Assembly: GCF_000027125.1 (NCBI RefSeq)
Contig: NC_017626.1
Reading direction: 5' to 3' (one strand)
Source: Escherichia coli 042
Lineage (GTDB): Bacteria > Pseudomonadota > Gammaproteobacteria > Enterobacterales > Enterobacteriaceae
Length of the DNA: 64,000 nucleotides
A program made the translations under genes and the position numbers. The number at the start of each line of letters is the position of its first letter. The first letter of the stretch is position 1. Below, piece after piece: positions 4,007 to 27,600 of the stretch. A model generated the notes under the pieces. The model saw only the letters and a program-made list of their open reading frames with translations. It was not told where the DNA came from and did not search any database.

Positions 4007-5152
4007 ATGAGCAAGACATTTGCCCGCAGCAGCCTGTGTGCGCTCACCATGACAATAATCACCGCTCATGCCGCCGAACCGCCTACCAATTTAGATAAAC
4101 CGGAAGGGCGACTGGATATTATCGCCTGGCCGGGATACATCGAACGCGGACAAACTGATAAACAATACGACTGGGTAACGCAATTCGAAAAAGAGACAGG
4201 CTGCGCGGTGAATGTGAAAACCGCCGCGACTTCCGATGAAATGGTCAGTCTGATGACCAAAGGGGGTTACGATCTGGTTACAGCATCCGGCGATGCCTCG
4301 CTGCGCCTGATTATGGGCAAACGCGTGCAGCCGATTAATACCGCATTGATTCCCAACTGGAAAACGCTCGATCCGCGCGTGGTTAAAGGCGACTGGTTTA
4401 ACGTTAGTGGCAAAGTTTATGGCACACCCTACCAATGGGGGCCGAACCTGTTGATGTACAACACTAAAACCTTCCCGACGCCGCCGGATAGCTGGCAAGT
4501 GGTCTTTGTTGAGCAGAATCTGCCGGACGGCAAGAGCAATAAAGGCCGCGTACAGGCCTATGATGGCCCTATCTACATTGCGGACGCTGCGTTGTTCGTT
4601 AAAGCCACTCAGCCGCAGTTGGGCATCAGCGATCCGTATCAACTCACCGAAGAACAGTACCAGGCGGTGCTGAAAGTGCTGCGCGATCAACACAGTTTGA
4701 TCCATCGCTACTGGCATGACACGACCGTGCAAATGAGCGATTTCAAAAACGAGGGTGTGGTTGCTTCCAGTGCCTGGCCCTATCAGGCCAACGCCCTGAA
4801 AGCCGAAGGCCAGCCTGTCGCTACCGTTTTCCCGAAAGAGGGCGTTACCGGTTGGGCTGACACCACCATGCTACATAGCGAAGCGAAACATCCGGTTTGC
4901 GCCTACAAATGGATGAACTGGTCATTAACGCCAAAAGTGCAGGGCGATGTGGCGGCCTGGTTTGGCTCGTTACCAGTAGTGCCGGAAGGGTGTAAAGCCA
5001 GTCCGTTATTAGGCGAGAAAGGTTGTGAAACAAACGGTTTTAACTATTTCGATAAAATCGCCTTCTGGAAAACGCCTATAGCAGAAGGGGGCAAGTTTTT
5101 TCCCTACAGTCGCTGGACGCAGGATTACATTGCCATTATGGGCGGTCGCTAA
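4007..5152 (+). CDS. ydcS: Periplasmic polyamine-binding protein of ABC transporter (PotD/PotF family)
   Basis: 381 aa with signal peptide; first gene of ydcSTUV-patD cluster. Confidence 0.9.
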   Translation: MSKTFARSSLCALTMTIITAHAAEPPTNLDKPEGRLDIIAWPGYIERGQTDKQYDWVTQFEKETGCAVNVKTAATSDEMVSLMTKGGYDLVTASGDASLRLIMGKRVQPINTALIPNWKTLDPRVVKGDWFNVSGKVYGTPYQWGPNLLMYNTKTFPTPPDSWQVVFVEQNLPDGKSNKGRVQAYDGPIYIADAALFVKATQPQLGISDPYQLTEEQYQAVLKVLRDQHSLIHRYWHDTTVQMSDFKNEGVVASSAWPYQANALKAEGQPVATVFPKEGVTGWADTTMLHSEAKHPVCAYKWMNWSLTPKVQGDVAAWFGSLPVVPEGCKASPLLGEKGCETNGFNYFDKIAFWKTPIAEGGKFFPYSRWTQDYIAIMGGR

Positions 5153-5169
5153 CTTCGCTGGGGTGTTTT

Positions 5170-6183
5170 ATGACGTACGCAGTGGAGTTTGACAACGTCT
5201 CGCGGTTGTACGGTGACGTGCGCGCAGTAGATGGCGTCAGTATTGCGATAAAAGATGGTGAATTCTTCTCTATGCTGGGGCCGTCCGGCTCCGGCAAAAC
5301 CACCTGCCTGCGCCTGATTGCTGGCTTCGAACAGCTTTCCGGCGGGGCTATCTCTATCTTTGGTAAACCCGCCAGCAATCTGCCACCGTGGGAGCGGGAC
5401 GTGAATACCGTCTTTCAGGACTACGCGCTATTTCCGCATATGTCGATTCTTGACAACGTGGCCTATGGGCTGATGGTCAAAGGCGTGAATAAAAAGCAGC
5501 GGCATGCGATGGCGCAAGAGGCGCTGGAGAAAGTGGCGTTGGGGTTTGTACAGCAACGTAAACCGTCACAACTTTCTGGTGGTCAGCGCCAACGGGTTGC
5601 TATTGCCAGAGCACTGGTGAATGAACCGCGCGTATTGCTGTTGGATGAACCGCTCGGCGCGCTGGATCTCAAATTGCGTGAGCAGATGCAACTTGAGCTG
5701 AAAAAGCTGCAACAGTCTCTCGGTATCACTTTTATCTTCGTTACCCACGATCAGGGCGAAGCGTTATCGATGTCCGATCGTGTTGCGGTTTTCAATAATG
5801 GACGCATTGAGCAGGTCGATTCCCCGCGTGACCTCTATATGCGCCCGCGCACGCCGTTTGTTGCCGGATTCGTCGGGACATCGAATGTTTTTGATGCACT
5901 GATGGCAGACAAACTTTGTGGCATGACGGGAAGCTTCGCCCTGCGACCGGAACATATCCGCTTCAACATCCCCGGCGAAGTGCAGGCCAATGGCACGATC
6001 CAGGCGGTGCAATATCAGGGCGCAGCGACTCGTTTTGAACTGAGACTGAACGGTGGTGAAAAACTGCTGGTGAGTCAGGCCAATATGACAGGCGAAGAAC
6101 TGCCTGCCACGCTCACGCCCGGACAACAAGTGATGGTTTCCTGGTCGCGTGATGTGATGGTGCCGCTGGTTGAGGAGAGGTGA
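5170..6183 (+). CDS. ydcT: ABC transporter ATP-binding protein (PotA-like)
   Basis: 337 aa; Walker A GPSGSGKTT, ABC signature LSGGQRQR, Walker B LLLDEP. Confidence 0.9.
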   Translation: MTYAVEFDNVSRLYGDVRAVDGVSIAIKDGEFFSMLGPSGSGKTTCLRLIAGFEQLSGGAISIFGKPASNLPPWERDVNTVFQDYALFPHMSILDNVAYGLMVKGVNKKQRHAMAQEALEKVALGFVQQRKPSQLSGGQRQRVAIARALVNEPRVLLLDEPLGALDLKLREQMQLELKKLQQSLGITFIFVTHDQGEALSMSDRVAVFNNGRIEQVDSPRDLYMRPRTPFVAGFVGTSNVFDALMADKLCGMTGSFALRPEHIRFNIPGEVQANGTIQAVQYQGAATRFELRLNGGEKLLVSQANMTGEELPATLTPGQQVMVSWSRDVMVPLVEER

Positions 6184-7125: not shown

Positions 7126-7909
7126 ACGCGCACCGTTTTTCCTCAAACTGGCGGCCTGGGGCGGCGTGGTTTTCCTACATTTTCCCATTCTGATTATCGC
7201 CGCCTATGCGTTTAACACTGAAGATGCGGCGTTTAGTTTTCCACCGCAAGGCCTGACGCTGCGCTGGTTTAGCGTGGCAGCACAGCGCAGTGATATTCTT
7301 GAGGCTGTGACACTGTCACTTAAAGTGGCGGTGCTGGCGACATTAATTGCGCTGGTGTTAGGGACGCTGGCCGCTGCCGCGCTGTGGCGACGAGACTTTT
7401 TCGGCAAAAACGCCATTTCGCTGTTACTGCTGCTGCCCATTGCGCTGCCGGGTATTGTCACTGGTCTGGCGCTATTAACCGCCTTTAAAACCATCGATCT
7501 GGAGCCGGGATTTTTCACCATCGTGGTCGGTCATGCGACTTTTTGCGTAGTGGTGGTGTTTAACAATGTCATCGCCCGTTTTCGCCGCACCTCGTGCAGT
7601 CTGGTTGAGGCGTCAATGGATCTTGGGGCCAATGGCTGGCAAACCTTCCGCTACGTAGTGTTGCCGAATCTCAGTTCGGCGCTACTGGCAGGAGGAATGC
7701 TGGCGTTTGCCTTGTCGTTCGATGAAATCATCGTGACGACCTTTACGGCAGGTCATGAACGAACGTTACCGTTGTGGTTGCTCAATCAGCTTGGGCGACC
7801 GCGTGATGTACCGGTAACCAACGTGGTGGCACTGCTGGTTATGTTGGTAACAACCTTGCCGATCCTGGGAGCCTGGTGGCTAACCCGCGAAGGCGACAAT
7901 GGTCAATAA
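7115..7909 (+). CDS. ydcV: ABC transporter permease (PotC-like)
   Basis: 264 aa membrane protein, overlaps ydcU by 11 nt. Confidence 0.9.
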
Positions 7910-7930: not shown

Positions 7931-9355
7931 ATGCAACATAAGTTACTGATTAACGGAGAACTGGTTAGCGGCGAAGGGGAGAAACAGCCTGTCTATAATC
8001 CGGCAACGGGGGAAGTTTTACTGGAGATTGCCGAGGCATCTGCAGAGCAGGTCGATGCCGCTGTTCGTGCAGCAGATGCAGCATTTGCCGAATGGGGGCA
8101 AACCACGCCGAAAGCGCGTGCGGAATGCCTGCTGAAACTGGCGGATGTAATCGAAGAAAATGGTCAAGTTTTTGCCGAACTGGAGTCCCGTAACTGTGGC
8201 AAACCGCTGCATAGTGCGTTCAATGATGAAATTCCGGCGATTGTCGATGTCTTTCGCTTTTTCGCCGGAGCAGCTCGCTGCCTGAATGGTCTGGCGGCAG
8301 GTGAATATCTTGAAGGTCATACTTCGATGATCCGTCGCGATCCGTTGGGGGTCGTGGCTTCGATCGCACCGTGGAATTATCCGCTGATGATGGCTGCGTG
8401 GAAACTGGCTCCGGCGCTGGCGGCAGGGAATTGCGTAGTGCTCAAACCATCAGAAATTACCCCGCTGACAGCGTTGAAGTTGGCAGAGCTGGCGAAAGAT
8501 ATCTTCCCAGCTGGCGTGATTAACGTGCTGTTTGGCAGAGGCAAAACGGTGGGCGATCCGCTGACCGGACATCCCAAAGTACGGATGGTGTCACTGACGG
8601 GCTCTATCGCCACTGGGGAACACATCATCAGCCATACCGCGCCGTCCATAAAGCTTACTCATATGGAACTTGGAGGCAAAGCGCCAGTGATAGTTTTTGA
8701 TGATGCGGATATTGAAGCGGTGGTCGAAGGTGTACGTACTTTTGGCTATTACAATGCCGGACAGGATTGTACTGCGGCTTGTCGGATCTACGCGCAAAAA
8801 GGTATTTACGATACGCTGGTGGAAAAACTCGGTGCTGCAGTGGCAACGTTAAAATCTGGTGCGCCGGATGACGAGTCTACGGAGCTTGGACCTTTAAGCT
8901 CACTGGCGCATCTCGATCGCGTCAGCAAAGCAGTAGAAGAGGCGAAAGCGACAGGGCACATCAAAGTGATCACTGGCGGTGAAAAGCGCAAGGGTAATGG
9001 CTATTACTATGCGCCGACGCTACTGGCTGGCGCATTACAGGACGATGCCATCGTGCAAAAAGAGGTATTTGGTCCGGTAGTGAGTGTTACGCTCTTTGAC
9101 AATGAAGAACAGGTGGTAAACTGGGCAAATGACAGCCAGTACGGACTTGCATCCTCGGTATGGACGAAAGATGTGGGCAGGGCGCATCGCGTCAGCGCAC
9201 GGCTACAATATGGTTGTACCTGGGTCAATACCCATTTCATGCTGGTAAGTGAAATGCCGCACGGTGGGCAGAAACTTTCTGGTTACGGCAAGGATATGTC
9301 ACTTTATGGGCTGGAGGATTACACCGTCGTCCGCCACGTCATGGTTAAACATTAA
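7931..9355 (+). CDS. patD: Gamma-aminobutyraldehyde dehydrogenase (aldehyde dehydrogenase family)
   Basis: 474 aa; ALDH family features (ELGGK, catalytic Cys region GQDCTAA). Confidence 0.9.
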
Positions 9356-9577
9356 GTTAAATGTTAGTGGCTGTTATAGGGCGGCCACTATCGTTTTAGG
9401 TTCTGAGTGTAATGGTGATTAAGTATCAGAATGATTACATTAATAACTAGCGGAAAAATTAGGCAGTTATTATGATCTAAATGTATGTTGGTGATTTTTC
9501 ATCCTGTCATAGTTGATTCGCATAAGGCTTTAGAGTATCGTTATTAACCTAATAATTTATAAGTAGAAGTATTAACA

Positions 9578-10387
9578 ATGAAAGTTCAATTGTATAAATT
9601 CACGGAAGATAAAAATAAAACCCTTACCTTCAGGTGGACGAAAAAACACTTTGAGTTTTGTATGGATAATAAAATCTTTTTAAATCATAAGGGGAAGAAG
9701 TCGTATAAAGAAAGAAATTTATTTCTTTTCTCAAAAGGTGACAAGATAACAATTGAAGATAATGTTATTGCTGAAGAATATTCAACAATGCCTGTAAAAA
9801 ATTTCTCCAGTGTCGGCGCTTTTTCATTCCCGACCTGTCATTTTACAGGGAATATACATATAGGTCGATTTTGTAGTATTGCATCAAATGTAAAAATAAT
9901 GGGTGGAAATCATCCTTTGAATCGTTTTACTACTCACATGATGACTTATAACGGTGAATTTGATAAGTTTGCTAAGAGTGAGTTTGAACGTAGCTGGACA
10001 TTGAAACCATTCATTACCAAACCTGAAAATCCGATTATAGGAAATGATGTCTGGATAGGAAATGATGTTGTACTGAAAGGTGGCATCGCAATAGGTGATG
10101 GTGCTGTTATTGCTGCCAATTCCGTTGTTACCAAAGATGTGCCCCCATATGCCATAGTTGCAGGAGTTCCTGCAAAAATAATCAGATTTAGATTTGATTC
10201 AAATGTTATTGATGAATTGTTGAGAATAAAGTGGTGGAATTATAATTACTCAGATCTTCCGGATAATAACAAATGTGATGATATAAATTATTTTGTTGAA
10301 GAGATGAATCGATTGATATCAAATGGAAATATTCAAGAGATGGACTATAAAAAATTCAATCTTTCTGAGATATTTAGAGACCTATAA
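9578..10387 (+). CDS. Hexapeptide-repeat (left-handed beta-helix) acetyltransferase, XAT-like (Vat/CatB-type)
   Basis: 269 aa; C-terminal IGNDVWIGNDVVL…IGDGAVIAANSVVTKDVPPYAIVAGVPAKIIRFRFD…LLRIKWWN resembles streptogramin/chloramphenicol acetyltransferases as recalled; AT-rich insert absent from the K-12 patD–yncL spacer as I recall it. Confidence 0.6.
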   Translation: MKVQLYKFTEDKNKTLTFRWTKKHFEFCMDNKIFLNHKGKKSYKERNLFLFSKGDKITIEDNVIAEEYSTMPVKNFSSVGAFSFPTCHFTGNIHIGRFCSIASNVKIMGGNHPLNRFTTHMMTYNGEFDKFAKSEFERSWTLKPFITKPENPIIGNDVWIGNDVVLKGGIAIGDGAVIAANSVVTKDVPPYAIVAGVPAKIIRFRFDSNVIDELLRIKWWNYNYSDLPDNNKCDDINYFVEEMNRLISNGNIQEMDYKKFNLSEIFRDL

Positions 10388-20554: not shown

Positions 20555-21093
20555 CAATAATGCCGGAGGTTAATGTTAATGAATCACTGGCGTAATTAAC
20601 TGGATATCCATTTGTTTGCTATGAATAGTAATTAAAGTTGGTACAACTATTTATATGATTGATGTAATTTCGTTTTTTATATGAAATATCAATTTAATAT
20701 AATCCGAAAATAAAACATCTTTTCGCATGTAGAGAAACATGTCGATATGATAGTGCAGTGCAGATCATGTCATCAGGGTAGGGCGGTAGCGTATTTAATC
20801 AGGGAAAGATTACGCAACGCTGCTTTTTTGTATTGAACGATTCGCATTTTATGTTTAAAAATTGCGATATTCCTTATTTCCTGAAGCTGTTTTTATTGCT
20901 TATACATGATCAAATACTCCTTACATAATTAAGGAGAACAAAATGGAACTTAATACACGCCAACAATTTGTATTACTTAAATAGACCAGTGAAGGTACGC
21001 ATCAGAACATCCGGTGAAGTGATTAATATTTCGTTGAATATTTCTCCCGATTTTTGAAACCTGCTGCTGTAGAAATTCTGAACAGGAGGAATT

Positions 21094-21378
21094 ATGCCTT
21101 TAGCAGCCAAACTCACCGACAAAGGCACCCAGCACGACGGTTATTACGAGACCGTCATCACCGCCGGGTCATCCACCGTCTTTATCGATGGTCTTCCCGC
21201 AGCCCGTCAGGGAGATCCGCTGACGCCGCATGCTAAACCGAAGCATCCCCCTCATCCCCGTAAAATCGCCAGAGGTTCTTCAACCGTCTTTATTGACGGC
21301 CTGCCCGCCGCCAGAAGCGGTGATGCTGTTGACTGCGGCGGCGTGGTTATTGGTGGCGGTACGGTAAATATAGGCTGA
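21094..21378 (+). CDS. PAAR-repeat protein (T6SS spike-tip)
   Basis: 94 aa; duplicated SSTVFIDGLPAAR(Q/S)GD motif typical of PAAR; strong AGGAGG RBS; 18 nt upstream of vgrG. Confidence 0.75.
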   Translation: MPLAAKLTDKGTQHDGYYETVITAGSSTVFIDGLPAARQGDPLTPHAKPKHPPHPRKIARGSSTVFIDGLPAARSGDAVDCGGVVIGGGTVNIG

Positions 21379-21396
21379 TATGTCTGAGAGGTATTT

Positions 21397-23802
21397 ATGT
21401 CCTTAAAAGGTCTTCGCTTTACGCTGGAGGTTGACGGCCAGGAGCCGGACACCTTTGCAGTGGTGAATTTCAGGTTAATCCAGAACCAGTCATATCCGTT
21501 TGTGATGAGTGTGGATGTTGCCAGCGACTCTTTTATGCAGACGGCGGAGATGCTGCTGGAGAAGAAGGCGACACTGACCATCTGGCAGGGCGCAGTGGCG
21601 CAGCGTTATGTCACCGGCGTGGTGGCGGGTTTTGGCATGCAGGAGAATAACGGCTGGCAGATGCGTTATCACCTGCGTATTGAGCCGCCGTTATGGCGGT
21701 GCGGGCTGCGGCAGAACTTTCGTATCTTCCAGCAGCAGGATATCCGGACGATATCGGCCACGTTACTGAACGAGAACGGCGTCACGGAGTGGACGCCGCT
21801 GTTTTATGAGGACCATCCGGCGCGGGAGTTCTGTGTCCAGTACGGGGAGTCGGACCTGGCGTTTCTGTCCCGGCTGTGGGCGGAGGAGGGTCTTTTCTTC
21901 TTTGAGCGGTTTGCGGCGGACAGTCCGGAGCAGAAGCTGACGCTGTGCGACGATGTGGCGGGGCTGTCACAGGCGGGGGAGTTTCCGTTTAACCCGGACA
22001 CATCGGCAGGTGCGGAGACGGAGTGTGTCAGTATGTTCCGTTATGAGGCGCATGTCCGCCCGTCATCGGTGCAGAGCCAGGATTACACCTTTAAGGTGCC
22101 GGACTGGCCGGGGATGTATGAGCAGCAGGGTGAGAACCTGAACGGACAGCTGGAGCAGTATGAGATATTTGATTATCCGGGAAGGTACAAGGATGAACAG
22201 CACGGCAAGGATTTCACGCTGTACCAGATGGAGAGCCTGCGCAGTGATGCGGAAAAGGCCACAGGGCAGAGTAATTCGCCGAAGCTGTGGCCGGGAACGC
22301 GGTTTATGCTGACGGGGCATCCGCAGAAGATGCTGAACCGTGAATGGCAGGTGGTACAGAGCATACTGTCAGGAAACCAGCCGCAGGCGCTGCACGGCAG
22401 CCAGGGAAAGGGAACCACGCTGGGCAATCAGTTAGAGGTGATACCGGCGGACCGGACGTGGCGTCCACGGCTGCAAAACAAACCGAAGGTGGACGGGCCA
22501 CAGAGCGCCATCGTCACCGGTCCTGCGGGAGAGGAAATCTTCTGCGATGAACATGGACGGGTACGGGTGAAGTTCCACTGGGACCGTTATCACGGGATGA
22601 CGGAGGCGAGTTCATGCTGGGTGCGGGTATCGCAGGCGTGGGCGGGGCCGGGGTTCGGTAACCTGGCGATACCACGGGTGGGTCAGGAGGTGATAGTGGA
22701 CTTCCTGAACGGCGACCCGGACCAGCCGATAATCATGGGGCGGACGTACCATGAGGACAACCGTTCGCCGGGCGACCTGCCGGGAACGAAGACGCAGATG
22801 ACCATCCGGTCAAAAACCTATAAAGGAAGCGGATTTAACGAGCTGCGGTTTGAAGACGCCACCAGTAATGAGCAGGTGTATATCCATGCCCAGAAGAACA
22901 TGGATACGGAGGTGCTCAACGACCGGACAACGGATGTGAAACATGACCATACGGAAACCATCGGGAACGACCAGAAGATAACGGTGGTGAAGGGGCAGAC
23001 GGTTCAGGTCGGGACCAGAAAAGAAGGGGGCCACGACCAGAGTATCACGGTGGCGAACGACCGGTGCATCACGGTACGTAATGACCAGACGCTGCAGGTG
23101 ACGAATGACCGGACGGTGAGCGTGAGTAATGATGACGGCCTGTACGTCAGAAATGACCGTAAAGTGACGGTGGAAGGGAAGCAGGAGCATAAGACGACGG
23201 GGAACCATATCAGTCTGGTGGAGGGAAAGCACAGCCTGGTGGTGAAGGGGGACCTGGCGAGGAAGGTGAGTGGCGCGCTGGGGATAAAGGTGGACGGGGA
23301 TATCGTGCTGGAGAGCAGCAGCCGGATAAGCCTGAAGGTGAGTGGCTCGTTTGTGGTCATCCATTCAGGGGGCGTGGACATCGTCGGGCCGAAAATCAAT
23401 CTCAATAGCGGCGGTAGTCCGGGGACGCCGGTGCCGGCGCTGCAACCGGCGGTGCTGAAGACACTGGGGGATGAGAAGAGTGGTGATGGCAGTGATTCCG
23501 GAGAAGAAAATGAAGACTCTGGAGGGAACTGCGTGACCGGAAGTGGTGGTGATGATCGAGGTGACGATGAGGATGAACCTGAAAAATATACTCTCCAGTT
23601 CCATTTTACAGACGATGACGGGATACCGTATTCAGAAACCCGCTACATTGCCTTCTTTGAGGATGGCACGCAGACCCGCGGAGAAACGGATGAAGAGGGG
23701 TATACAGAGCGTTTTTTTGTATCTAGCAAACATGAAATTAAAGTGAAGTTGTTATTTGCGAATGATGATTTTCTCTCAATGGAAGGACACTATGGACGAT
23801 AA
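21397..23802 (+). CDS. vgrG: Type VI secretion spike protein VgrG with acidic linker and C-terminal extension domain
   Basis: 801 aa; N-terminus MSLKGLRFTLEVDGQEPDTFAVVNFRL…IWQG…RIFQ matches VgrG gp27/gp5 core; C-terminal repeat-rich beta-helix; Gly/Asp/Glu-rich linker then ~70 aa terminal domain. Confidence 0.85.
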   Translation: MSLKGLRFTLEVDGQEPDTFAVVNFRLIQNQSYPFVMSVDVASDSFMQTAEMLLEKKATLTIWQGAVAQRYVTGVVAGFGMQENNGWQMRYHLRIEPPLWRCGLRQNFRIFQQQDIRTISATLLNENGVTEWTPLFYEDHPAREFCVQYGESDLAFLSRLWAEEGLFFFERFAADSPEQKLTLCDDVAGLSQAGEFPFNPDTSAGAETECVSMFRYEAHVRPSSVQSQDYTFKVPDWPGMYEQQGENLNGQLEQYEIFDYPGRYKDEQHGKDFTLYQMESLRSDAEKATGQSNSPKLWPGTRFMLTGHPQKMLNREWQVVQSILSGNQPQALHGSQGKGTTLGNQLEVIPADRTWRPRLQNKPKVDGPQSAIVTGPAGEEIFCDEHGRVRVKFHWDRYHGMTEASSCWVRVSQAWAGPGFGNLAIPRVGQEVIVDFLNGDPDQPIIMGRTYHEDNRSPGDLPGTKTQMTIRSKTYKGSGFNELRFEDATSNEQVYIHAQKNMDTEVLNDRTTDVKHDHTETIGNDQKITVVKGQTVQVGTRKEGGHDQSITVANDRCITVRNDQTLQVTNDRTVSVSNDDGLYVRNDRKVTVEGKQEHKTTGNHISLVEGKHSLVVKGDLARKVSGALGIKVDGDIVLESSSRISLKVSGSFVVIHSGGVDIVGPKINLNSGGSPGTPVPALQPAVLKTLGDEKSGDGSDSGEENEDSGGNCVTGSGGDDRGDDEDEPEKYTLQFHFTDDDGIPYSETRYIAFFEDGTQTRGETDEEGYTERFFVSSKHEIKVKLLFANDDFLSMEGHYGR

Positions 23803-24583
23803 TAATCAAACTTCTGGACAACCAAAGCCAGAGCCAGAAGAATGTGTGAAAGAGCAAAAAATAACTGATCATTTTAAAATAATGATTGATAAGGCTCGTA
23901 AGGCACAAAAGTTGGTTTTGATAAAAAGAGCAGATGATCTTTTGAGATGGGGAGCACAGGAGGAATATGATTTCAGTAAGATCTTTGGTGTTAAAGGAAA
24001 TAAGGAGGTTAATATAAGAAAATATGGACATAATACAGGTAGGCGCATGAATGCTAGATTTCTTATGATGGATGGTGTGAGAAGATTAATGATTATAGCT
24101 AATGATTTAACAATGAGCAGTTTTATAAATTATACAGGTTGTAATGAATTTGCAGCATTCGTCAGCCCAAGTAAGGATATGCCCTATATAATTAACATAG
24201 GCGCAAAATTTGAGTATAGAGATGGCAAAAAAAATCCAGTAACGGGAAAGGATTCTCATGTTGCTACTTTATGTCATGAAATGTCTCATATTCAGTGGTA
24301 TTATGGGGATAATAAAAAAGGTGGTATGTGGTCACAGGATTATACAACTACTGATAAATATTCAACGTGCAAAGAGGATGAAGTTTCATATGACGAACAT
24401 ATCCGTATTGCAACTAAACTGATCTCTAAACAAAAAGATCAAATATTCGAGAATGCATATAACATAGAAAGATATTTTGAAATAAGATTAATTGAAAGTG
24501 AGATAGACTCGATTAATGATGAAATATTAAGCAATTCAGTTAAGAAAAAAATAGCGGAATTAGAAAAAGCACTTCTCCATTAA
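23792..24583 (+). CDS. Candidate T6SS cargo effector with HExxH zinc-metallopeptidase-like motif
   Basis: 264 aa from ATG at 23792, overlapping the vgrG stop by 11 nt; GGAAGGA RBS; HEMSH at 24275-24289; ~30% GC by eye; no family recognised. Confidence 0.5.
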   Translation: MDDNNQTSGQPKPEPEECVKEQKITDHFKIMIDKARKAQKLVLIKRADDLLRWGAQEEYDFSKIFGVKGNKEVNIRKYGHNTGRRMNARFLMMDGVRRLMIIANDLTMSSFINYTGCNEFAAFVSPSKDMPYIINIGAKFEYRDGKKNPVTGKDSHVATLCHEMSHIQWYYGDNKKGGMWSQDYTTTDKYSTCKEDEVSYDEHIRIATKLISKQKDQIFENAYNIERYFEIRLIESEIDSINDEILSNSVKKKIAELEKALLH

Positions 24584-24606
24584 CTAATAAGTCGAGAAAT
24601 ATATTA

Positions 24607-25428
24607 ATGCTGCAAGCTATAAAAAAAATCATAATAATGACAATCGTAAATATTATATTTTTCTATTCCTTTCAATCGACTGCGGATGAAATGGTTTTAA
24701 TAAAAAAATACGGGTTTGGGCTTGAGAGAGATATCAAAGGAAGGCCATTAATTTATCCTATCGAAAATTATGATGAGTGTAAGAAAAAATGCAATCATAT
24801 GAATTATATAGCGGATGTCAATGCTCAATTAGCTATGAGTAAAAAAAATAACAGGATTTTTGCTAACATAACCTTTACTAACAATAGCTCTACCACGTAT
24901 TTTTTTTCTAAATATTACCTACCTATGAAAGTAAAAGATGGAAAAGGAGATGAATATGATGCGATATGCAAAAAACCATTCAGAATCAACTCTGGGAATA
25001 TCACGTTGGACTACTTAGGTGGTTCATGTCCTTTTGAAATTAATACGAATCCTGAACGGTGGAATACTATTAAACCAGGTCGTAGTTTTTTGTTGAGTAT
25101 AACCTTAAATGATATGTATGCCTTTATACCAGGAGATAATTATTATTTTATAAAATCATCTGGCTATAAATTTGTTAATGACAAGTGGTTTACACTCAAA
25201 TCAATCAATAATATTTTTCTTTATTTTTTAAATTTAAAAATTAATTGTGCTGATGATTTTTTTGATATTAATAATTTTACTACATGTGATAATTTGTTAT
25301 TAGATGAAAAAAAACACTTTTTTATTAATCAGTTATGGGCAATTGAGGATGAAAAAAATTCTATTTACGTCACCCCTGATGAAATTTCTATAAGTATAGA
25401 CGGCGATAACTTAAAGTTGCCATATTAG
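24607..25428 (+). CDS. Candidate cognate immunity protein (periplasmic, signal-peptide-bearing)
   Basis: 273 aa, AT-rich; N-terminal hydrophobic segment IIIMTIVNIIFFYSFQSTA; several Cys; directly downstream of the effector candidate. Confidence 0.45.
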   Translation: MLQAIKKIIIMTIVNIIFFYSFQSTADEMVLIKKYGFGLERDIKGRPLIYPIENYDECKKKCNHMNYIADVNAQLAMSKKNNRIFANITFTNNSSTTYFFSKYYLPMKVKDGKGDEYDAICKKPFRINSGNITLDYLGGSCPFEINTNPERWNTIKPGRSFLLSITLNDMYAFIPGDNYYFIKSSGYKFVNDKWFTLKSINNIFLYFLNLKINCADDFFDINNFTTCDNLLLDEKKHFFINQLWAIEDEKNSIYVTPDEISISIDGDNLKLPY

Positions 25429-25447
25429 GAATCTGTGAAAGAACAAG

Positions 25448-25936
25448 GTGCGCCGCTTTTTTGTACTAAATAATTCGCATTTTAGTCACGGCAGAGAAGA
25501 AATCCATCTTCATATTGTTTGCGATGTCCCTGATGAACTTATTGATTTCACGTTTGAATGGAAAGGTCAGAAGAAATTATGCGTGGCAGTCTCCTTTTGG
25601 TCAATAATAGCAGAACAAAAGAAAGAGCCAGAAATGACGGTCAGATATTATATCAGTTCTGCTGATTTAACCGCAAAAAAGTTCGCCACAGCGATACGAA
25701 ATCACTGGCACGTGGAGAATAAGCTGCACTGGCGTCTGGACGTGGTAATGAACGAAGACGACTGCAAAATAAGAAGAGGAAACGCCGCAGAATTATTTTC
25801 AGGGATACGGCACATCGCTATTAATATTTTAACGAATGATAAGGTATTCAAGGCAGGGTTAAGACGCAAGATGCGAAAAGCAGCTATGGACAGAGACTAC
25901 CTCGCGTCAGTCCTTGCGGGGAGCGGGCTTTCGTAA
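25448..25936 (+). pseudogene. ISAs1-family (H-repeat-associated) transposase, C-terminal fragment
   Basis: C-terminal ~140 aa resemble H-repeat-associated proteins ([30 protein letters not shown]…); N-terminal two-thirds absent. Confidence 0.7.
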
Positions 25937-26044: not shown

Positions 26045-26605
26045 ATGAAAAAAAGCAAAAAAATTAAAACAATGAACCATCAAAATAATAGCGGGATACA
26101 AAATCAACCAGACTATCACATCGAAATAGAAAGAAAAAATATGGTAAGATTGCTTGATGAACGTATTGATAAAGTTTACGGTTCATTGCTAGGACCAATG
26201 AAAAAGAAAAATATAGATAAAATACGTCATTTTACACTTGATGTAATGGTGTTTATTCTTGACACGAACCCTCGTGTTTGTAATAAATTATCCAGGGAAA
26301 TAATATCTTTAGCGCAAAATACCTTCATTGAAAAAAACGTTAATTTTTCAACTTTTAATAATGAACAGCATAGAATAAGGGAGTATATGAATGAAGGTGG
26401 TGGAATACGATGGTTTACATGGGATAACCCCGAGATATCTTTTGTTCGTGCATCTTTTGGCCTTTTTGTCAAAATGGAAACAAAAGGTGATCATGAACAT
26501 ACACTAAGTGACACATTTCTTCAGATTGTTGAGTGTGTTAATTTAAATATAGGACTTATTGCAAAAGATGAACTGGTAAAAATCATCAATAAACACTTTA
26601 TGTAA
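26045..26605 (+). CDS. Hypothetical protein (AT-rich accessory ORF, no recognisable domain)
   Basis: 186 aa ORF with GAGG RBS; low GC; no TM segments. Confidence 0.4.
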   Translation: MKKSKKIKTMNHQNNSGIQNQPDYHIEIERKNMVRLLDERIDKVYGSLLGPMKKKNIDKIRHFTLDVMVFILDTNPRVCNKLSREIISLAQNTFIEKNVNFSTFNNEQHRIREYMNEGGGIRWFTWDNPEISFVRASFGLFVKMETKGDHEHTLSDTFLQIVECVNLNIGLIAKDELVKIINKHFM

Positions 26606-26964: not shown

Positions 26965-27600
26965 ATGAATAAAGGTAATAGATTACAACAGTTAGAAGAT
27001 GCGTGTCGTGATATTATTAAAATTAACATGTGGTATGAACTCCCCGATTATGTATTTTTTTCAATATCTGACACCATCGATGGGACGAGTGATGAATTCG
27101 CAATAAATGTGTATAAAAATATCGATAAAAGTCTTCTTGAAATATTATTGCATCCATCTGTTTTACTGTCAGTTGTTGAGTCCTTACAAAGTAATACTAT
27201 AGCTGAGTATATCGTGAAATTGTCTGAAATAGAGATGAATTATGACGACTTGCTAATATCGGATGTTAAATCATGTCTTTTTATCAACTATGGATTCAAT
27301 AACAGTGAATCGGTTGCGCTATTTAATAAGATTTACCGCGAATTAAAAGATATTGTAAAATCATCAAGAGTACATATAGATCATGAGAAAGATATTTTTG
27401 ATGGCCTTAATCAAATCTTGGCTTTTTCCGATAATAATAAACATGAGTATTTTTTATATATAAAGGCATATTGGCTCAGTTTATACTTTTGTGAAATTTC
27501 ACAGAACGTGAGAGAAAGAGATAAGTTGTCATTTTATTATAATGAATTTTCTGTCCGATTTCCTAATGTTGTCCTATATCCGTCATGCTACAAATTGTAA
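26965..27600 (+). CDS. Hypothetical protein (AT-rich accessory ORF, no recognisable domain)
   Basis: 211 aa ORF with AAGG RBS; low GC. Confidence 0.4.
   Translation: MNKGNRLQQLEDACRDIIKINMWYELPDYVFFSISDTIDGTSDEFAINVYKNIDKSLLEILLHPSVLLSVVESLQSNTIAEYIVKLSEIEMNYDDLLISDVKSCLFINYGFNNSESVALFNKIYRELKDIVKSSRVHIDHEKDIFDGLNQILAFSDNNKHEYFLYIKAYWLSLYFCEISQNVRERDKLSFYYNEFSVRFPNVVLYPSCYKL

What the first reader, a model, noticed from the sequence alone, without database searches (positions are those of the whole stretch)
23400..23802. VgrG C-terminal extension and abrupt GC drop mark a modular recombination junction
After the conserved beta-helix, VgrG continues with a Gly/Asp/Glu-rich acidic linker (…GDEKSGDGSDSGEENEDSGG…DDRGDDEDEPE) and a ~70-aa terminal domain (YTLQFHFTDDDGIPYSETRYIAFFEDG…). 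Nucleotide composition shifts from GC-rich vgrG core to AT-rich cargo near this point. This looks like a swappable adaptor (possibly transthyretin-like) that specifies which effector is loaded.
Basis: partly seen in the sequence, partly recalled or inferred. Interest (0 to 1): 0.55.

Follow-up and report, generated by a model that had tools for sequence, protein, structure and literature searches.

The report
VgrG spike's swappable effector-docking domain
The end of this E. coli type VI secretion spike gene encodes a flexible acidic linker and a small transthyretin-like docking domain; both were joined by recombination, with the AT-rich metallopeptidase toxin gene behind them, onto a GC-rich spike core, which is a clear example of an already known way of arming the spike.

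Summary
VgrG (21397-23802, 801 aa) ends with a Gly/Asp/Glu-rich linker and a terminal domain of about 58 aa plus a 15-aa tail. Composition drops in two steps. Third-codon-position GC (GC3) falls from 0.74 to 0.37 at codon 695 (nt 23479). Total GC falls to about 0.30 at about nt 23710.

Both steps coincide with homology breakpoints against other E. coli vgrG alleles: 23481 against a Tle1/DUF4123-type vgrG, and 23708 against the CFT073 allele.

The terminal domain belongs to the VgrG C-terminal transthyretin-like (TTR) family. A profile built from it hits the solved TTRs of P. aeruginosa VgrG2b (E 6e-10) and EAEC VgrG1 (E 2.6e-9). The AlphaFold model superposes on 6sjl at 1.1 Å.

The next gene overlaps vgrG by 11 nt. 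It encodes an M35/aspzincin-like metallopeptidase and is followed by a putative immunity gene. All ten close enterobacterial relatives examined carry a homologous peptidase. TTRs that are 48-62% identical carry unrelated cargo (Amidase_2, Ntox44 and unnamed proteins). The domain is therefore a generic docking module. Any cargo specificity probably lies in its variable last third and tail, and this is untested.

This is a new member of a known kind. Interest is modest.

The parts
21094..21378 (+). Minimal PAAR protein gene (94 aa), 18 nt upstream of vgrG
   Evidence: NCBIfam NF033420 T6SS_PAAR_dom, E 1.4e-46, full length. Annotated as a T6SS PAAR protein in the identical locus of strain EcPF15.
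21397..23481 (+). GC-rich vgrG core: gp27/OB/gp5 beta-helix, residues 1-695
   Evidence: Pfam Phage_GPD, Phage_base_V and Gp5_trimer_C. GC 0.585, GC3 0.743. 94% identical to a vgrG in a T6SS gene cluster over 21388-23481, with the match ending at 23481.
23479..23481 (+). Junction J1 (codon 695): the GC3 breakpoint and the homology breakpoint coincide
   Evidence: Maximum-likelihood GC3 breakpoint at nt 23479, LLR 27.4 against a permutation maximum of 8.6. BLAST matches to L001 and to the L004 vgrG remnant both end at 23481. The megablast hit H39 ends at query position 682, which is window 23481.
23467..23580 (+). Gly/Asp/Glu/Ser-rich low-complexity linker (residues ~691-728)
   Evidence: Sequence. 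GC3 0.317. pLDDT below 50 in the single-sequence model. Relatives have linkers of similar composition but different sequence. The EAEC TTR is reported to hang on a flexible linker (PMC10715212).
23581..23754 (+). Transthyretin-like (TTR) domain, residues 729-786
   Evidence: Profile A1 hits 6h56 (VgrG2b) at E 6.1e-10 and 6sjl (EAEC VgrG1 residues 781-830) at E 2.6e-9. The AF2 model built with A1 has a core pLDDT of about 90 and is all-beta. Foldseek top match is 6sjl_A, rmsd 1.1 A over 54 columns, probability 1.00. 76 representative proteins match at E<=1e-3, mostly at the extreme C-terminus.
23708..23718 (+). Junction J2 inside the TTR (R772-F774), next to a T7 run at 23712-23718; total GC falls to ~0.30 here
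   Evidence: The CFT073 allele is 93% identical over 21093-23708 and then diverges. Maximum-likelihood total-GC breakpoint at 23700-23713. The T run is read from the sequence.
23755..23802 (+). 15-aa C-terminal tail (FANDDFLSMEGHYGR) and stop codon; contains the effector's Shine-Dalgarno sequence and start codon
   Evidence: Low pLDDT (55) when modelled alone. Tail classes differ between alleles. GGAAGGA at 23781-23787 and ATG at 23792 are read from the sequence.
23792..24583 (+). Cargo effector: M35/aspzincin-like zinc metallopeptidase (263 aa, HEMSH at 162-166), overlapping vgrG by 11 nt
   Evidence: RefSeq CDS 'peptidase M35' at these coordinates. Family profile A3 hits the M35 structures 2x3a (E 1.4e-7) and 1g12 (E 4.4e-6). 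The single sequence scores only E 0.005 against Pfam Aspzincin_M35. GC 0.324.
24607..25428 (+). Putative cognate immunity protein (273 aa, hydrophobic N-terminus)
   Evidence: Homologues (23-42% identity) follow every homologous effector examined. No Pfam or NCBIfam family matches. CFT073 and Nissle retain it as an orphan downstream of a different effector.
20797..20851 (.). Left copy of a 55-nt direct repeat that brackets the PAAR-vgrG-effector-immunity block; the right copy is at 25430-25484, abutting the ISAs1 remnant
   Evidence: the repeat finder family D1, 76% identity, spacing 4633 nt. Window 20800-20953 matches the sequence next to ISAs1 in L001 and L004. ISAs1 remnant identified by NF033564.

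Best explanation
Proposed reading. The last 110 residues of this orphan VgrG form an 'internal adaptor': a disordered acidic linker, a ~58-aa transthyretin-like beta-sandwich and a short tail. They hang from the side of the spike tip, while the small PAAR protein encoded upstream caps the beta-helix.

Each of the three TTR domains of the trimer tethers one copy of the M35-like metallopeptidase encoded by the overlapping next gene. The most likely mode is edge-to-edge beta-strand complementation with the effector's conserved N-terminal region, reinforced by the VgrG tail. The toxin then rides on the spike into a neighbouring cell's periplasm. The following gene protects the producer.

In evolutionary terms, the linker, TTR, effector and immunity gene form an AT-rich cassette. 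It is joined to a GC-rich, highly conserved spike core by homologous recombination. Two nested crossover points are used: the end of the core (codon 695) and the conserved first two-thirds of the TTR (codon ~772). Recombination at either point re-arms the spike.

Shown here: the domain architecture, TTR family membership, both junctions, the cargo linkage in relatives, and displaced remnants and orphan immunity genes. Inferred: physical binding, the strand-complementation mode, the delivery route and where specificity lies.
For: TTR membership. Profile A1 hits the solved VgrG TTRs in 6h56 (E 6e-10) and 6sjl (E 2.6e-9). The AF2 model has a core pLDDT of about 90. Its best PDB match is the EAEC VgrG1-Tle1 structure, rmsd 1.1 A.

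Junctions. The GC3 breakpoint at nt 23479 equals the BLAST breakpoint at 23481 against a Tle1/DUF4123-type vgrG (L001). It also equals the end of the vgrG 3' remnant left behind in JX21CE8, where a vgrG-TTR-M35-immunity block sits in front of the remnant plus DUF4123 and Tle1. The CFT073 allele breaks at 23708 and has a different M35 effector. It keeps the window-type immunity gene as an orphan at 98.7% identity.

Cargo linkage. Ten TTR-ending VgrG loci, including this window, from E. coli, another Escherichia species, Salmonella, Trabulsiella and two unnamed assemblies are all followed by homologous HExxH peptidases (23-63% identity). Nine of them have a homologous immunity gene immediately downstream; CFT073 keeps the window-type gene further downstream as an orphan.

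Operon features. The effector start overlaps the vgrG stop by 11 nt and has a Shine-Dalgarno sequence inside the tail codons. No DUF4123, DUF1795 or DUF2169 chaperone gene lies in the island.

Literature. Tle1's N-terminal strand complements the EAEC TTR, which hangs on a flexible linker, and PAAR binds the needle independently of the TTR (PMC10715212). The same edge-to-edge mode is modelled for VgrG17-Tae17, with the post-TTR tail threading into the effector (PMC11796386). vgrG 3' ends are exchanged by recombination (PMC6899460). An M35-peptidase from an orphan vgrG locus of a B2 E. coli strain is toxic only when sent to the periplasm (PMC7904677).
Against: This VgrG lacks the DUF2345 extension, which contributes to cargo binding in EAEC VgrG1 and VgrG2b (PMC10673891).

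TTR identity does not predict cargo class. The L022 TTR is 70% identical over the N-part yet precedes a protein without HExxH. The Budvicia TTR (55%) precedes an Amidase_2 protein.

Tail class 'xQxIDMxxGGxxE' accompanies effectors that are only ~30% identical to each other.

The shared N-terminal cargo motif did not reach significance (38 of 500 shuffles scored at least as high).

No T6SS core genes lie in the window, so activity of the system in this strain is unknown. The published periplasmic-toxicity result was not sequence-matched to this effector.
Confidence: 0.75

Rival explanations
1. The TTR domain is not the loading site. The effector would be carried some other way (on the beta-helix sides, on PAAR, or by an unrecognised chaperone). 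The TTR would serve another role such as spike stability, baseplate fit or binding a target-cell surface.
For: TTR or CarboxypepD_reg-like sandwiches are generic binding modules; a few family members give weak Pfam hits to CarboxypepD_reg and SpaA. TTR sequence does not sort by cargo class. In EAEC, further contacts on the gp5 needle stabilise Tle1 (PMC10715212). In E. coli PAR, a DUF2345 protein bridges VgrG and an M35 effector (PMC10673891).
Against: The two solved or tested homologues use the TTR for cargo binding. The PAAR here is a minimal 94-aa protein with no extension. No adaptor gene and no DUF2345 are present. The TTR always sits at the extreme C-terminus, directly before the cargo gene.
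Confidence: 0.13
2. The C-terminal extension is itself the payload, as in an 'evolved' VgrG: a small toxic or adhesive domain rather than an adaptor.
For: Evolved VgrGs with C-terminal effector domains exist, for example VgrG2b (PMC6899460). The best PDB profile hit lies within the chain named 'effector domain of VgrG2b'.
Against: The match is to the TTR segment (chain residues 7-65) of that construct, not to its peptidase domain. The domain is only ~58 aa and all-beta, with no catalytic motif. A dedicated toxin-immunity pair follows immediately.
Confidence: 0.04
3. There is no recombination junction. The GC drop would merely reflect the amino-acid composition of an acidic linker and local codon drift within one vertically inherited gene.
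For: The linker is rich in Asp, Glu, Gly and Ser, whose codons could shift composition. The N-terminal part of the TTR has an intermediate GC3 of 0.54.
Against: The shift is in third positions (0.74 to 0.37; LLR 27.4 against a permutation maximum of 8.6). It coincides to within 2 nt with homology breakpoints in independent alleles, and with a displaced remnant in JX21CE8. A different C-terminal module on a 94%-identical core shows the same GC3 drop at residue ~691.
Confidence: 0.02

Closest known systems
EAEC VgrG1 C-terminal TTR domain loading the Tle1 phospholipase (PDB 6sjl/6sk0; Flaugnatti et al., as cited in PMC10715212)
   Same: A small transthyretin-like sandwich at the extreme C-terminus of VgrG, on a flexible linker, with the cargo gene immediately downstream. 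Sequence-profile homology at E 2.6e-9 and rmsd 1.1 A.
   Different: EAEC VgrG1 has a DUF2345 beta-helix extension before the TTR; this VgrG has none. The cargo is a phospholipase rather than an M35-like peptidase. This VgrG has a ~40-aa acidic linker and a 15-aa post-TTR tail. Identity is only about 28%.
P. aeruginosa VgrG2b (PA0262): VgrG-DUF2345-TTR-metallopeptidase fusion (PDB 6h56; PMC6899460)
   Same: The best profile hit (E 6e-10) is its TTR segment. The TTR is directly followed by an HExxH metallopeptidase that acts in the periplasm, with a periplasmic immunity protein. Recombination at the vgrG 3' end is documented in strain BL21.
   Different: There the peptidase is fused to the spike; here it is a separate, translationally coupled gene. 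The E. coli effector-family profile hits the M35 enzymes AsaP1 and GfMEP but not 6h56, so homology between the two peptidases was not detected. No DUF2345 is present here.
A. baumannii VgrG17-Tae17 (PMC11796386)
   Same: A TTR-like sandwich completed by one effector strand, plus a post-TTR tail that threads into the effector. This matches the TTR-plus-tail layout seen here.
   Different: That complex is an AlphaFold model supported by mutagenesis. The cargo is a peptidoglycan hydrolase. No sequence comparison with VgrG17 was made here.
E. coli orphan vgrG islands / VT modules (Ma et al. 2018, cited in PMC6730261) and 'module 5, M35-peptidase' of B2 strain BCE049 (PMC7904677)
   Same: An orphan PAAR-vgrG-toxin-immunity island outside the main T6SS cluster in ExPEC. 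An M35-like effector that is toxic in the periplasm.
   Different: In the passages read, those papers do not describe the TTR domain, the linker or the nested junctions. Identity of the BCE049 protein to this effector was not checked.
C-terminal toxin displacement and orphan immunity arrays in Rhs and CDI systems
   Same: A conserved delivery core, a sharp junction to a polymorphic AT-rich toxin/immunity cassette, displaced 3' remnants and retained orphan immunity genes. The island occupies the locus that holds rhsE in K-12 (my knowledge of the K-12 map).
   Different: The toxin here is a separate cargo protein. What is swapped onto the core is a docking domain rather than the toxin domain itself.
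PAAR-TTR proteins (Shneider et al. 2013, cited in PMC6899460)
   Same: Homologous TTR domains (35-40% identity) end PAAR proteins on Yersinia and Pantoea plasmids, and a 392-aa putative cargo gene follows directly.
   Different: The carrier is PAAR rather than VgrG. The PAAR in this window has no TTR.

Membership tests
VgrG/PAAR C-terminal transthyretin-like (TTR) adaptor domain | Sequence homology to experimentally solved VgrG TTR domains | tested here: met
   Profile A1 (78 sequences) hits 6h56 chain residues 7-65 at E 6.1e-10 and 6sjl residues 781-830 at E 2.6e-9.
VgrG/PAAR C-terminal transthyretin-like (TTR) adaptor domain | Small beta-sandwich fold that superposes on a solved TTR | tested here: met
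   AF2 with alignment: mean pLDDT 80, core about 90, five strands. Foldseek top match 6sjl_A, rmsd 1.1 A over 54 columns, probability 1.00; 5-hydroxyisourate hydrolase (a transthyretin-related protein) at rmsd 2.1 A. The Foldseek E-value is only 8.8e-3 because the domain is short.
VgrG/PAAR C-terminal transthyretin-like (TTR) adaptor domain | Position at the extreme C-terminus of the spike protein, after the beta-helix, on a flexible linker | tested here: met
   Residues 729-786 of 801. The linker at 691-728 is low-complexity with pLDDT below 50. In relatives the domain ends 1-20 residues from the C-terminus.
VgrG/PAAR C-terminal transthyretin-like (TTR) adaptor domain | Direct binding of the cognate cargo effector, and a requirement for its delivery | not testable with these tools
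   Only genomic linkage is available: the cargo gene overlaps the vgrG stop, and homologous cargo follows all ten close relatives examined.
VgrG/PAAR C-terminal transthyretin-like (TTR) adaptor domain | Match to a curated domain model | tested here: not met
   No Pfam family matches the domain even at E<=10. Only 1 of 78 members reaches E<=0.001 against CarboxypepD_reg or SpaA. NCBIfam covers only the core. Pfam-A and NCBIfam appear to have no model for this family.
DUF2345-containing VgrG (EAEC VgrG1 / VgrG2b architecture) | DUF2345 (PF10106) beta-helix extension between gp5 and the TTR | tested here: not met
   Pfam finds Gp5_trimer_C up to residue 621 and no DUF2345. More distant TTR-bearing VgrGs (P0077, P0044, P0062, P0028) do have DUF2345.
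Peptidase M35 / aspzincin (the cargo) | HExxH zinc-binding motif | tested here: met
   HEMSH at residues 162-166; H162, E163 and H166 are invariant across five divergent homologues.
Peptidase M35 / aspzincin (the cargo) | Sequence homology to characterised M35 enzymes | tested here: met
   Family profile A3 hits AsaP1 (2x3a) at E 1.4e-7 and Grifola peptidyl-Lys metalloendopeptidase (1g12) at E 4.4e-6, over about 80 residues around the active site. The single sequence gives Pfam Aspzincin_M35 at only E 0.005.
Peptidase M35 / aspzincin (the cargo) | Third zinc ligand: the Asp of the GTxDxxYG motif | tested here: inconclusive
   An invariant Asp (D183) lies 17 residues after the second His, but the surrounding motif is not GTxDxxYG. 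No effector structure was modelled.
Peptidase M35 / aspzincin (the cargo) | Proteolytic activity and its substrate | not testable with these tools
   The only evidence is a literature report of periplasmic toxicity for an M35-peptidase from a comparable E. coli locus (PMC7904677), not sequence-matched here.
T6SS orphan vgrG effector island | PAAR, VgrG, effector and immunity genes co-oriented and tightly spaced, outside the main T6SS cluster | tested here: met
   Gene gaps are 18 nt, -11 nt and 23 nt. The flanks are ansP-yncG and yddH-nhoA, and no tss core genes occur in the first 50 kb of the window.

The most novel reading that the evidence does not exclude
The TTR may be a two-part docking device used across unrelated T6SS cargo. 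Its conserved first two-thirds would accept a short N-terminal strand carried by cargo of many families: EQKITD (this M35 effector), QVNITR (a 271-aa unknown protein), QVNISR (Tae4), EQKITK (a 318-aa unknown protein), DNQITK (Ntox44), and possibly YHLSTR in the cargo of PAAR-TTR proteins. That strand would be a general 'TTR-targeting signal'. The variable last third and post-TTR tail are exactly what junction J2 swaps together with the toxin, and they would supply cargo specificity.
Probability: 0.25. Interest if true: 0.55.

Novelty: new member of a known kind. Interest (0 to 1): 0.3.

Why it matters
It gives a base-pair-resolved natural example of how E. coli re-arms a conserved T6SS spike. 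Two nested crossover points, at the end of the spike core and inside the docking domain, let a linker-TTR-toxin-immunity cassette be exchanged, leaving remnants and orphan immunity genes behind.

The locus is common: about 12% of complete E. coli genomes carry it, including UTI89, 536 and the species type strain, with variant alleles in CFT073 and Nissle. It therefore bears on competition among gut and urinary-tract strains.

In practical terms, it shows that Pfam-A and NCBIfam do not detect this widespread VgrG/PAAR TTR family. It also marks residues 772-801 as the place to look for cargo specificity, and 695/728 as natural splice points for engineering spikes that carry chosen cargo.

Tried and rejected
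1. Single-sequence AlphaFold of residues 671-801 gave a poor model (pLDDT 52.6). It was superseded by the alignment-based model.

2. The word-index protein search with the C-terminal 85 aa returned only 20 short hits; several are frameshifted fragments and no full-length VgrG was returned. The exhaustive representative search was used instead.

With the narrower A2 it returned only 4 loci, so no large cargo census was possible.

4. I looked for homology between this effector and the VgrG2b peptidase (6h56), to test a split-versus-fused relationship. It was not detected with the single sequence or with profile A3.

5. I tried to obtain the EAEC Tle1 N-terminus for comparison with the cargo motif. 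Accession NC_017626.1 is not in the collection. A Tle1 query aligned only to residues 186-318 of 6sjl_D.

6. A de novo search for a shared N-terminal cargo motif across 7 unrelated cargo families scored 213 against a null of 186 +/- 16. 38 of 500 shuffles scored at least as high, so it is not significant and is kept only as a hypothesis (the first attempt timed out).

7. I tested whether TTR identity sorts by cargo class. It does not sort cleanly.

8. The idea that the GC drop is a codon-composition artefact of the acidic linker was rejected on GC3 and on the matching homology breakpoints.
Full report
**What is at the site**

The window is E. coli chromosome. Over the first ~29.6 kb, the gene coordinates annotated in uropathogenic strain EcPF15 match the window's ORFs; the 2.7 kb that was aligned directly (22800-25500) is 100% identical.

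Between ansP-yncG and yddH-nhoA lies a co-oriented block:
- PAAR, 21094-21378
- vgrG, 21397-23802 (801 aa)
- a gene annotated 'peptidase M35', 23792-24583
- a hypothetical gene, 24607-25428
- an ISAs1 remnant and two AT-rich ORFs

K-12 carries rhsE at this position (my knowledge of the K-12 map). No T6SS core genes are in the first 50 kb of the window, so this is an orphan vgrG island.

**Check of the observation**

The quoted peptide strings are present. Pfam and NCBIfam recognise the spike core only up to about residue 621-672, and nothing matches beyond that.

The composition shift is real and large. The vgrG core has GC 0.585 and GC3 0.743. The effector has 0.324 / 0.25 and the next gene 0.282 / 0.266. 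Flanking housekeeping genes are near 0.50.

The drop has two steps:
- Third-position GC breaks at codon 695 / nt 23479 (0.744 to 0.374; LLR 27.4, against a maximum of 8.6 in 500 permutations).
- Total GC breaks at 23700-23713 (0.576 to 0.302; LLR 152).

Because GC3 falls, this is not simply the codon content of an acidic linker.

**The junctions are recombination junctions**

BLAST against other E. coli loci gives breakpoints at the same places.

- *J1.* A vgrG sitting next to tssB, tssC and hcp in strain 2017-02-2CC is 94.4% identical from 21388 to exactly 23481. It then continues with a different polar linker and a short tail, followed by DUF4123 and Tle1 genes. Its GC3 also drops at residue ~691.
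- *Displaced remnant.* In strain JX21CE8, a vgrG-linker-TTR-M35-immunity block (86% identical to 21388-24495) sits directly upstream of a vgrG 3' remnant. The remnant corresponds to window 23282-23481 and is followed by DUF4123 and Tle1. This is the footprint expected when a new cassette displaces an old 3' end.
- *J2.* The CFT073/Nissle allele is 93% identical through 23708, inside the terminal domain. It then diverges through a different 200-aa M35-like effector (32% identical). Identity resumes at 98.7% over the window-type immunity gene, which is therefore an orphan there.

J1 (23479-23481) and J2 (23708-23712) match the two composition steps.

**Distribution in E. coli**

- 659 of 5426 complete genomes carry the 338-nt C-terminal module.
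- 492 of these have it over at least 80% of its length.
- 127 are in the 90-95% identity band, which includes the CFT073-type alleles listed.
- 13 are in the 60-80% band, where JX21CE8 lies.

**What the terminal domain is**

An exhaustive HMMER search of 1.84 billion representative proteins with residues 727-801 found 76 proteins at E<=1e-3. The matched segment lies within about 20 residues of the C-terminus in most of them and is sometimes duplicated. The longer ones are VgrGs, some of the gp5-only type and some with DUF2345.

The consensus is xYxLxFxFxDDDGxPYxNTxYIAxxxDGxxxxGxTDxxGxTExF...IxxxL. Pfam has no model that detects it.

A profile of 78 members hits two solved structures. One is the TTR segment of the P. 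aeruginosa VgrG2b C-terminal construct (6h56, E 6.1e-10). The other is the TTR of EAEC VgrG1 in its complex with Tle1 (6sjl, residues 781-830, E 2.6e-9).

AlphaFold with that alignment gives an all-beta domain with core pLDDT about 90 and a poorly ordered tail. Its best PDB match is 6sjl_A at rmsd 1.1 Å. Homologous TTRs also end PAAR proteins on Yersinia and Pantoea plasmids, as known from the literature.

**The cargo**

The next gene starts at ATG 23792, 11 nt before the vgrG stop. A GGAAGGA Shine-Dalgarno sequence lies inside the codons of the VgrG tail.

The protein has HEMSH. A five-member family profile hits the M35 aspzincins AsaP1 (E 1.4e-7) and GfMEP (E 4.4e-6), but not the VgrG2b peptidase.

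The following 273-aa protein has a hydrophobic N-terminus (read by eye). Homologues of it lie immediately downstream of the homologous effector in nine of the ten loci examined; CFT073 keeps the window-type gene further downstream as an orphan. It is the likely immunity protein. A paper on a B2 mastitis strain reports that an M35-peptidase from an orphan two-vgrG effector locus is toxic to E. coli only when exported to the periplasm (PMC7904677). I did not verify that it is the same protein.

**Is the domain cargo-specific?**

In ten loci where the TTR is a close enterobacterial relative, the downstream gene is always a homologous HExxH peptidase at 23-63% identity. The loci are:
- this window
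- CFT073
- JX21CE8
- an Escherichia sp. (L006)
- two Salmonella (L013, L015)
- two Trabulsiella (L008, L009)
- L014 and L021

Equally similar TTRs precede unrelated cargo:
- Amidase_2 in Budvicia (55% identical; Pfam E 2e-13)
- Ntox44 (53%)
- an unnamed 303/271-aa family
- a 314-aa protein (62%)
- Tae4

Split at J2, the first 44 residues of the domain are well conserved regardless of cargo, and the last 14 residues and the tail are variable. Mean identity for the N-part is 0.66 within a cargo family and 0.52 between families. For the C-part it is 0.42 and 0.32.

So the family is a generic docking module. If there is specificity, it lies in residues ~772-801, which is the segment that J2 swaps together with the toxin. 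This part is inference.

**Mechanism**

By homology with the EAEC system, the TTRs hang on flexible linkers at the sides of the needle. PAAR caps the tip independently of the TTR, and the effector's N-terminal strand completes the TTR sheet (PMC10715212). In the A. baumannii VgrG17-Tae17 model, the post-TTR tail additionally threads into the effector (PMC11796386).

The effectors here share a conserved N-terminal region (CVxxQKITxxFxxM...AQKxVL...W...F..IFG). Similar short strands (QVNITR, QVNISR, EQKITK, DNQITK) open unrelated cargo proteins. However, an unbiased motif search over seven families was not significant: 38 of 500 shuffles scored at least as high.

**Comparison with what is known**

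TTR internal adaptors (EAEC VgrG1, VgrG2b, VgrG4b, VgrG17, PAAR-TTR), recombination at vgrG 3' ends (PMC6899460) and E. coli vgrG islands with polymorphic toxins (PMC6730261) are all established.

This locus differs from the solved examples in three ways. It lacks DUF2345. It has a long acidic linker and a distinct tail. It carries a separate, translationally coupled M35-like cargo. The nested second junction inside the TTR is a modest new detail.

**Verdict**

The finding is a new member of a known kind, with interest about 0.3.

Noticed in passing
window 20797-20851 and 25430-25484 (also 20800-20953; 25475-25936): A 55-nt direct repeat (76% identical, 4633 nt apart) brackets the PAAR-vgrG-effector-immunity block. 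The right copy abuts the ISAs1 remnant. The left one matches sequence next to ISAs1 copies in other strains' vgrG islands, which suggests ISAs1 ends bound or helped move the cassette.
   Followed up: partly
L003 (CFT073) 9108-9995; Nissle 1917 likewise; corresponds to window 24595-25484: CFT073 and Nissle have a different M35-like effector after vgrG but keep the window-type immunity gene at 98.7% identity further downstream. It is an orphan immunity gene, implying successive cassette displacement.
   Followed up: partly
L004 (JX21CE8) 9103-9449: Within a T6SS gene cluster, a vgrG 3' remnant (equivalent to window 23282-23481 plus a Tle1-type tail) sits behind the vgrG-TTR-M35-immunity block and in front of DUF4123 and Tle1.
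   Followed up: yes
L002 (O145:H28 RM12761) 5071-5981; window 22870-23747 missing: In O145 strains vgrG is truncated at the equivalent of 22870. The missing stretch, including the linker and TTR, is replaced by ~900 nt encoding a small C39 cysteine-peptidase-domain protein and a hypothetical protein. The M35 gene there is annotated only as fragments.
   Followed up: no
L005 (MS 200-1), insertion at window 23647-23653: An IS21-family element (istA/istB) is inserted inside the TTR-coding region with an apparent 7-bp overlap. It separates vgrG from its effector.
   Followed up: no
window 23712-23718: A T7 homopolymer lies immediately 3' of junction J2. Several database fragments (P0012, P0017-P0020) are frameshifted translations of this region; for example P0017 ends ...YTERFLYLANMKLK. 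These are probably assembly errors, but slippage that truncates the tail is not excluded.
   Followed up: no
window 26045-26605 and 26965-27600: Two AT-rich ORFs (GC 0.30; 186 and 211 aa) lie between the ISAs1 remnant and yddH. They match no NCBIfam family and are annotated hypothetical. They may be orphan immunity genes or remnants of earlier cassettes.
   Followed up: no
P0021, P0028, P0056 (VgrG C-termini); P0034, P0068, P0075: Some VgrGs end in two tandem TTR domains. Some non-VgrG proteins consist of 4-5 TTR-like repeats separated by acidic or Pro-rich linkers (consensus WxxIELxDEDGRPxxxxRYxxxLPDGxxxEGxLDExGxAR).
   Followed up: no
L018 1317-3804 (record CP011602.1): The spike is split into two genes: a 549-aa VgrG followed by a separate 267-aa DUF2345+TTR protein, then a 271-aa cargo. 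This resembles the split arrangement reported for E. coli PAR in PMC10673891.
   Followed up: no
window 21157-21204 and 21265-21312: There is an internal 48-nt direct repeat (75% identical) within the PAAR gene. It encodes the repeated ...SSTVFIDGLPAAR... segment of the PAAR fold.
   Followed up: no
L008 (Trabulsiella odontotermitis) ~7200-7330: The mechanically called start of the M35-like effector there is too late. The upstream in-frame sequence encodes ...EEGNILHQKITDPFKKM..., which includes the conserved N-terminal strand motif but has no ATG, GTG or TTG upstream of it in frame. The vgrG in that assembly is also broken into pieces.
   Followed up: partly
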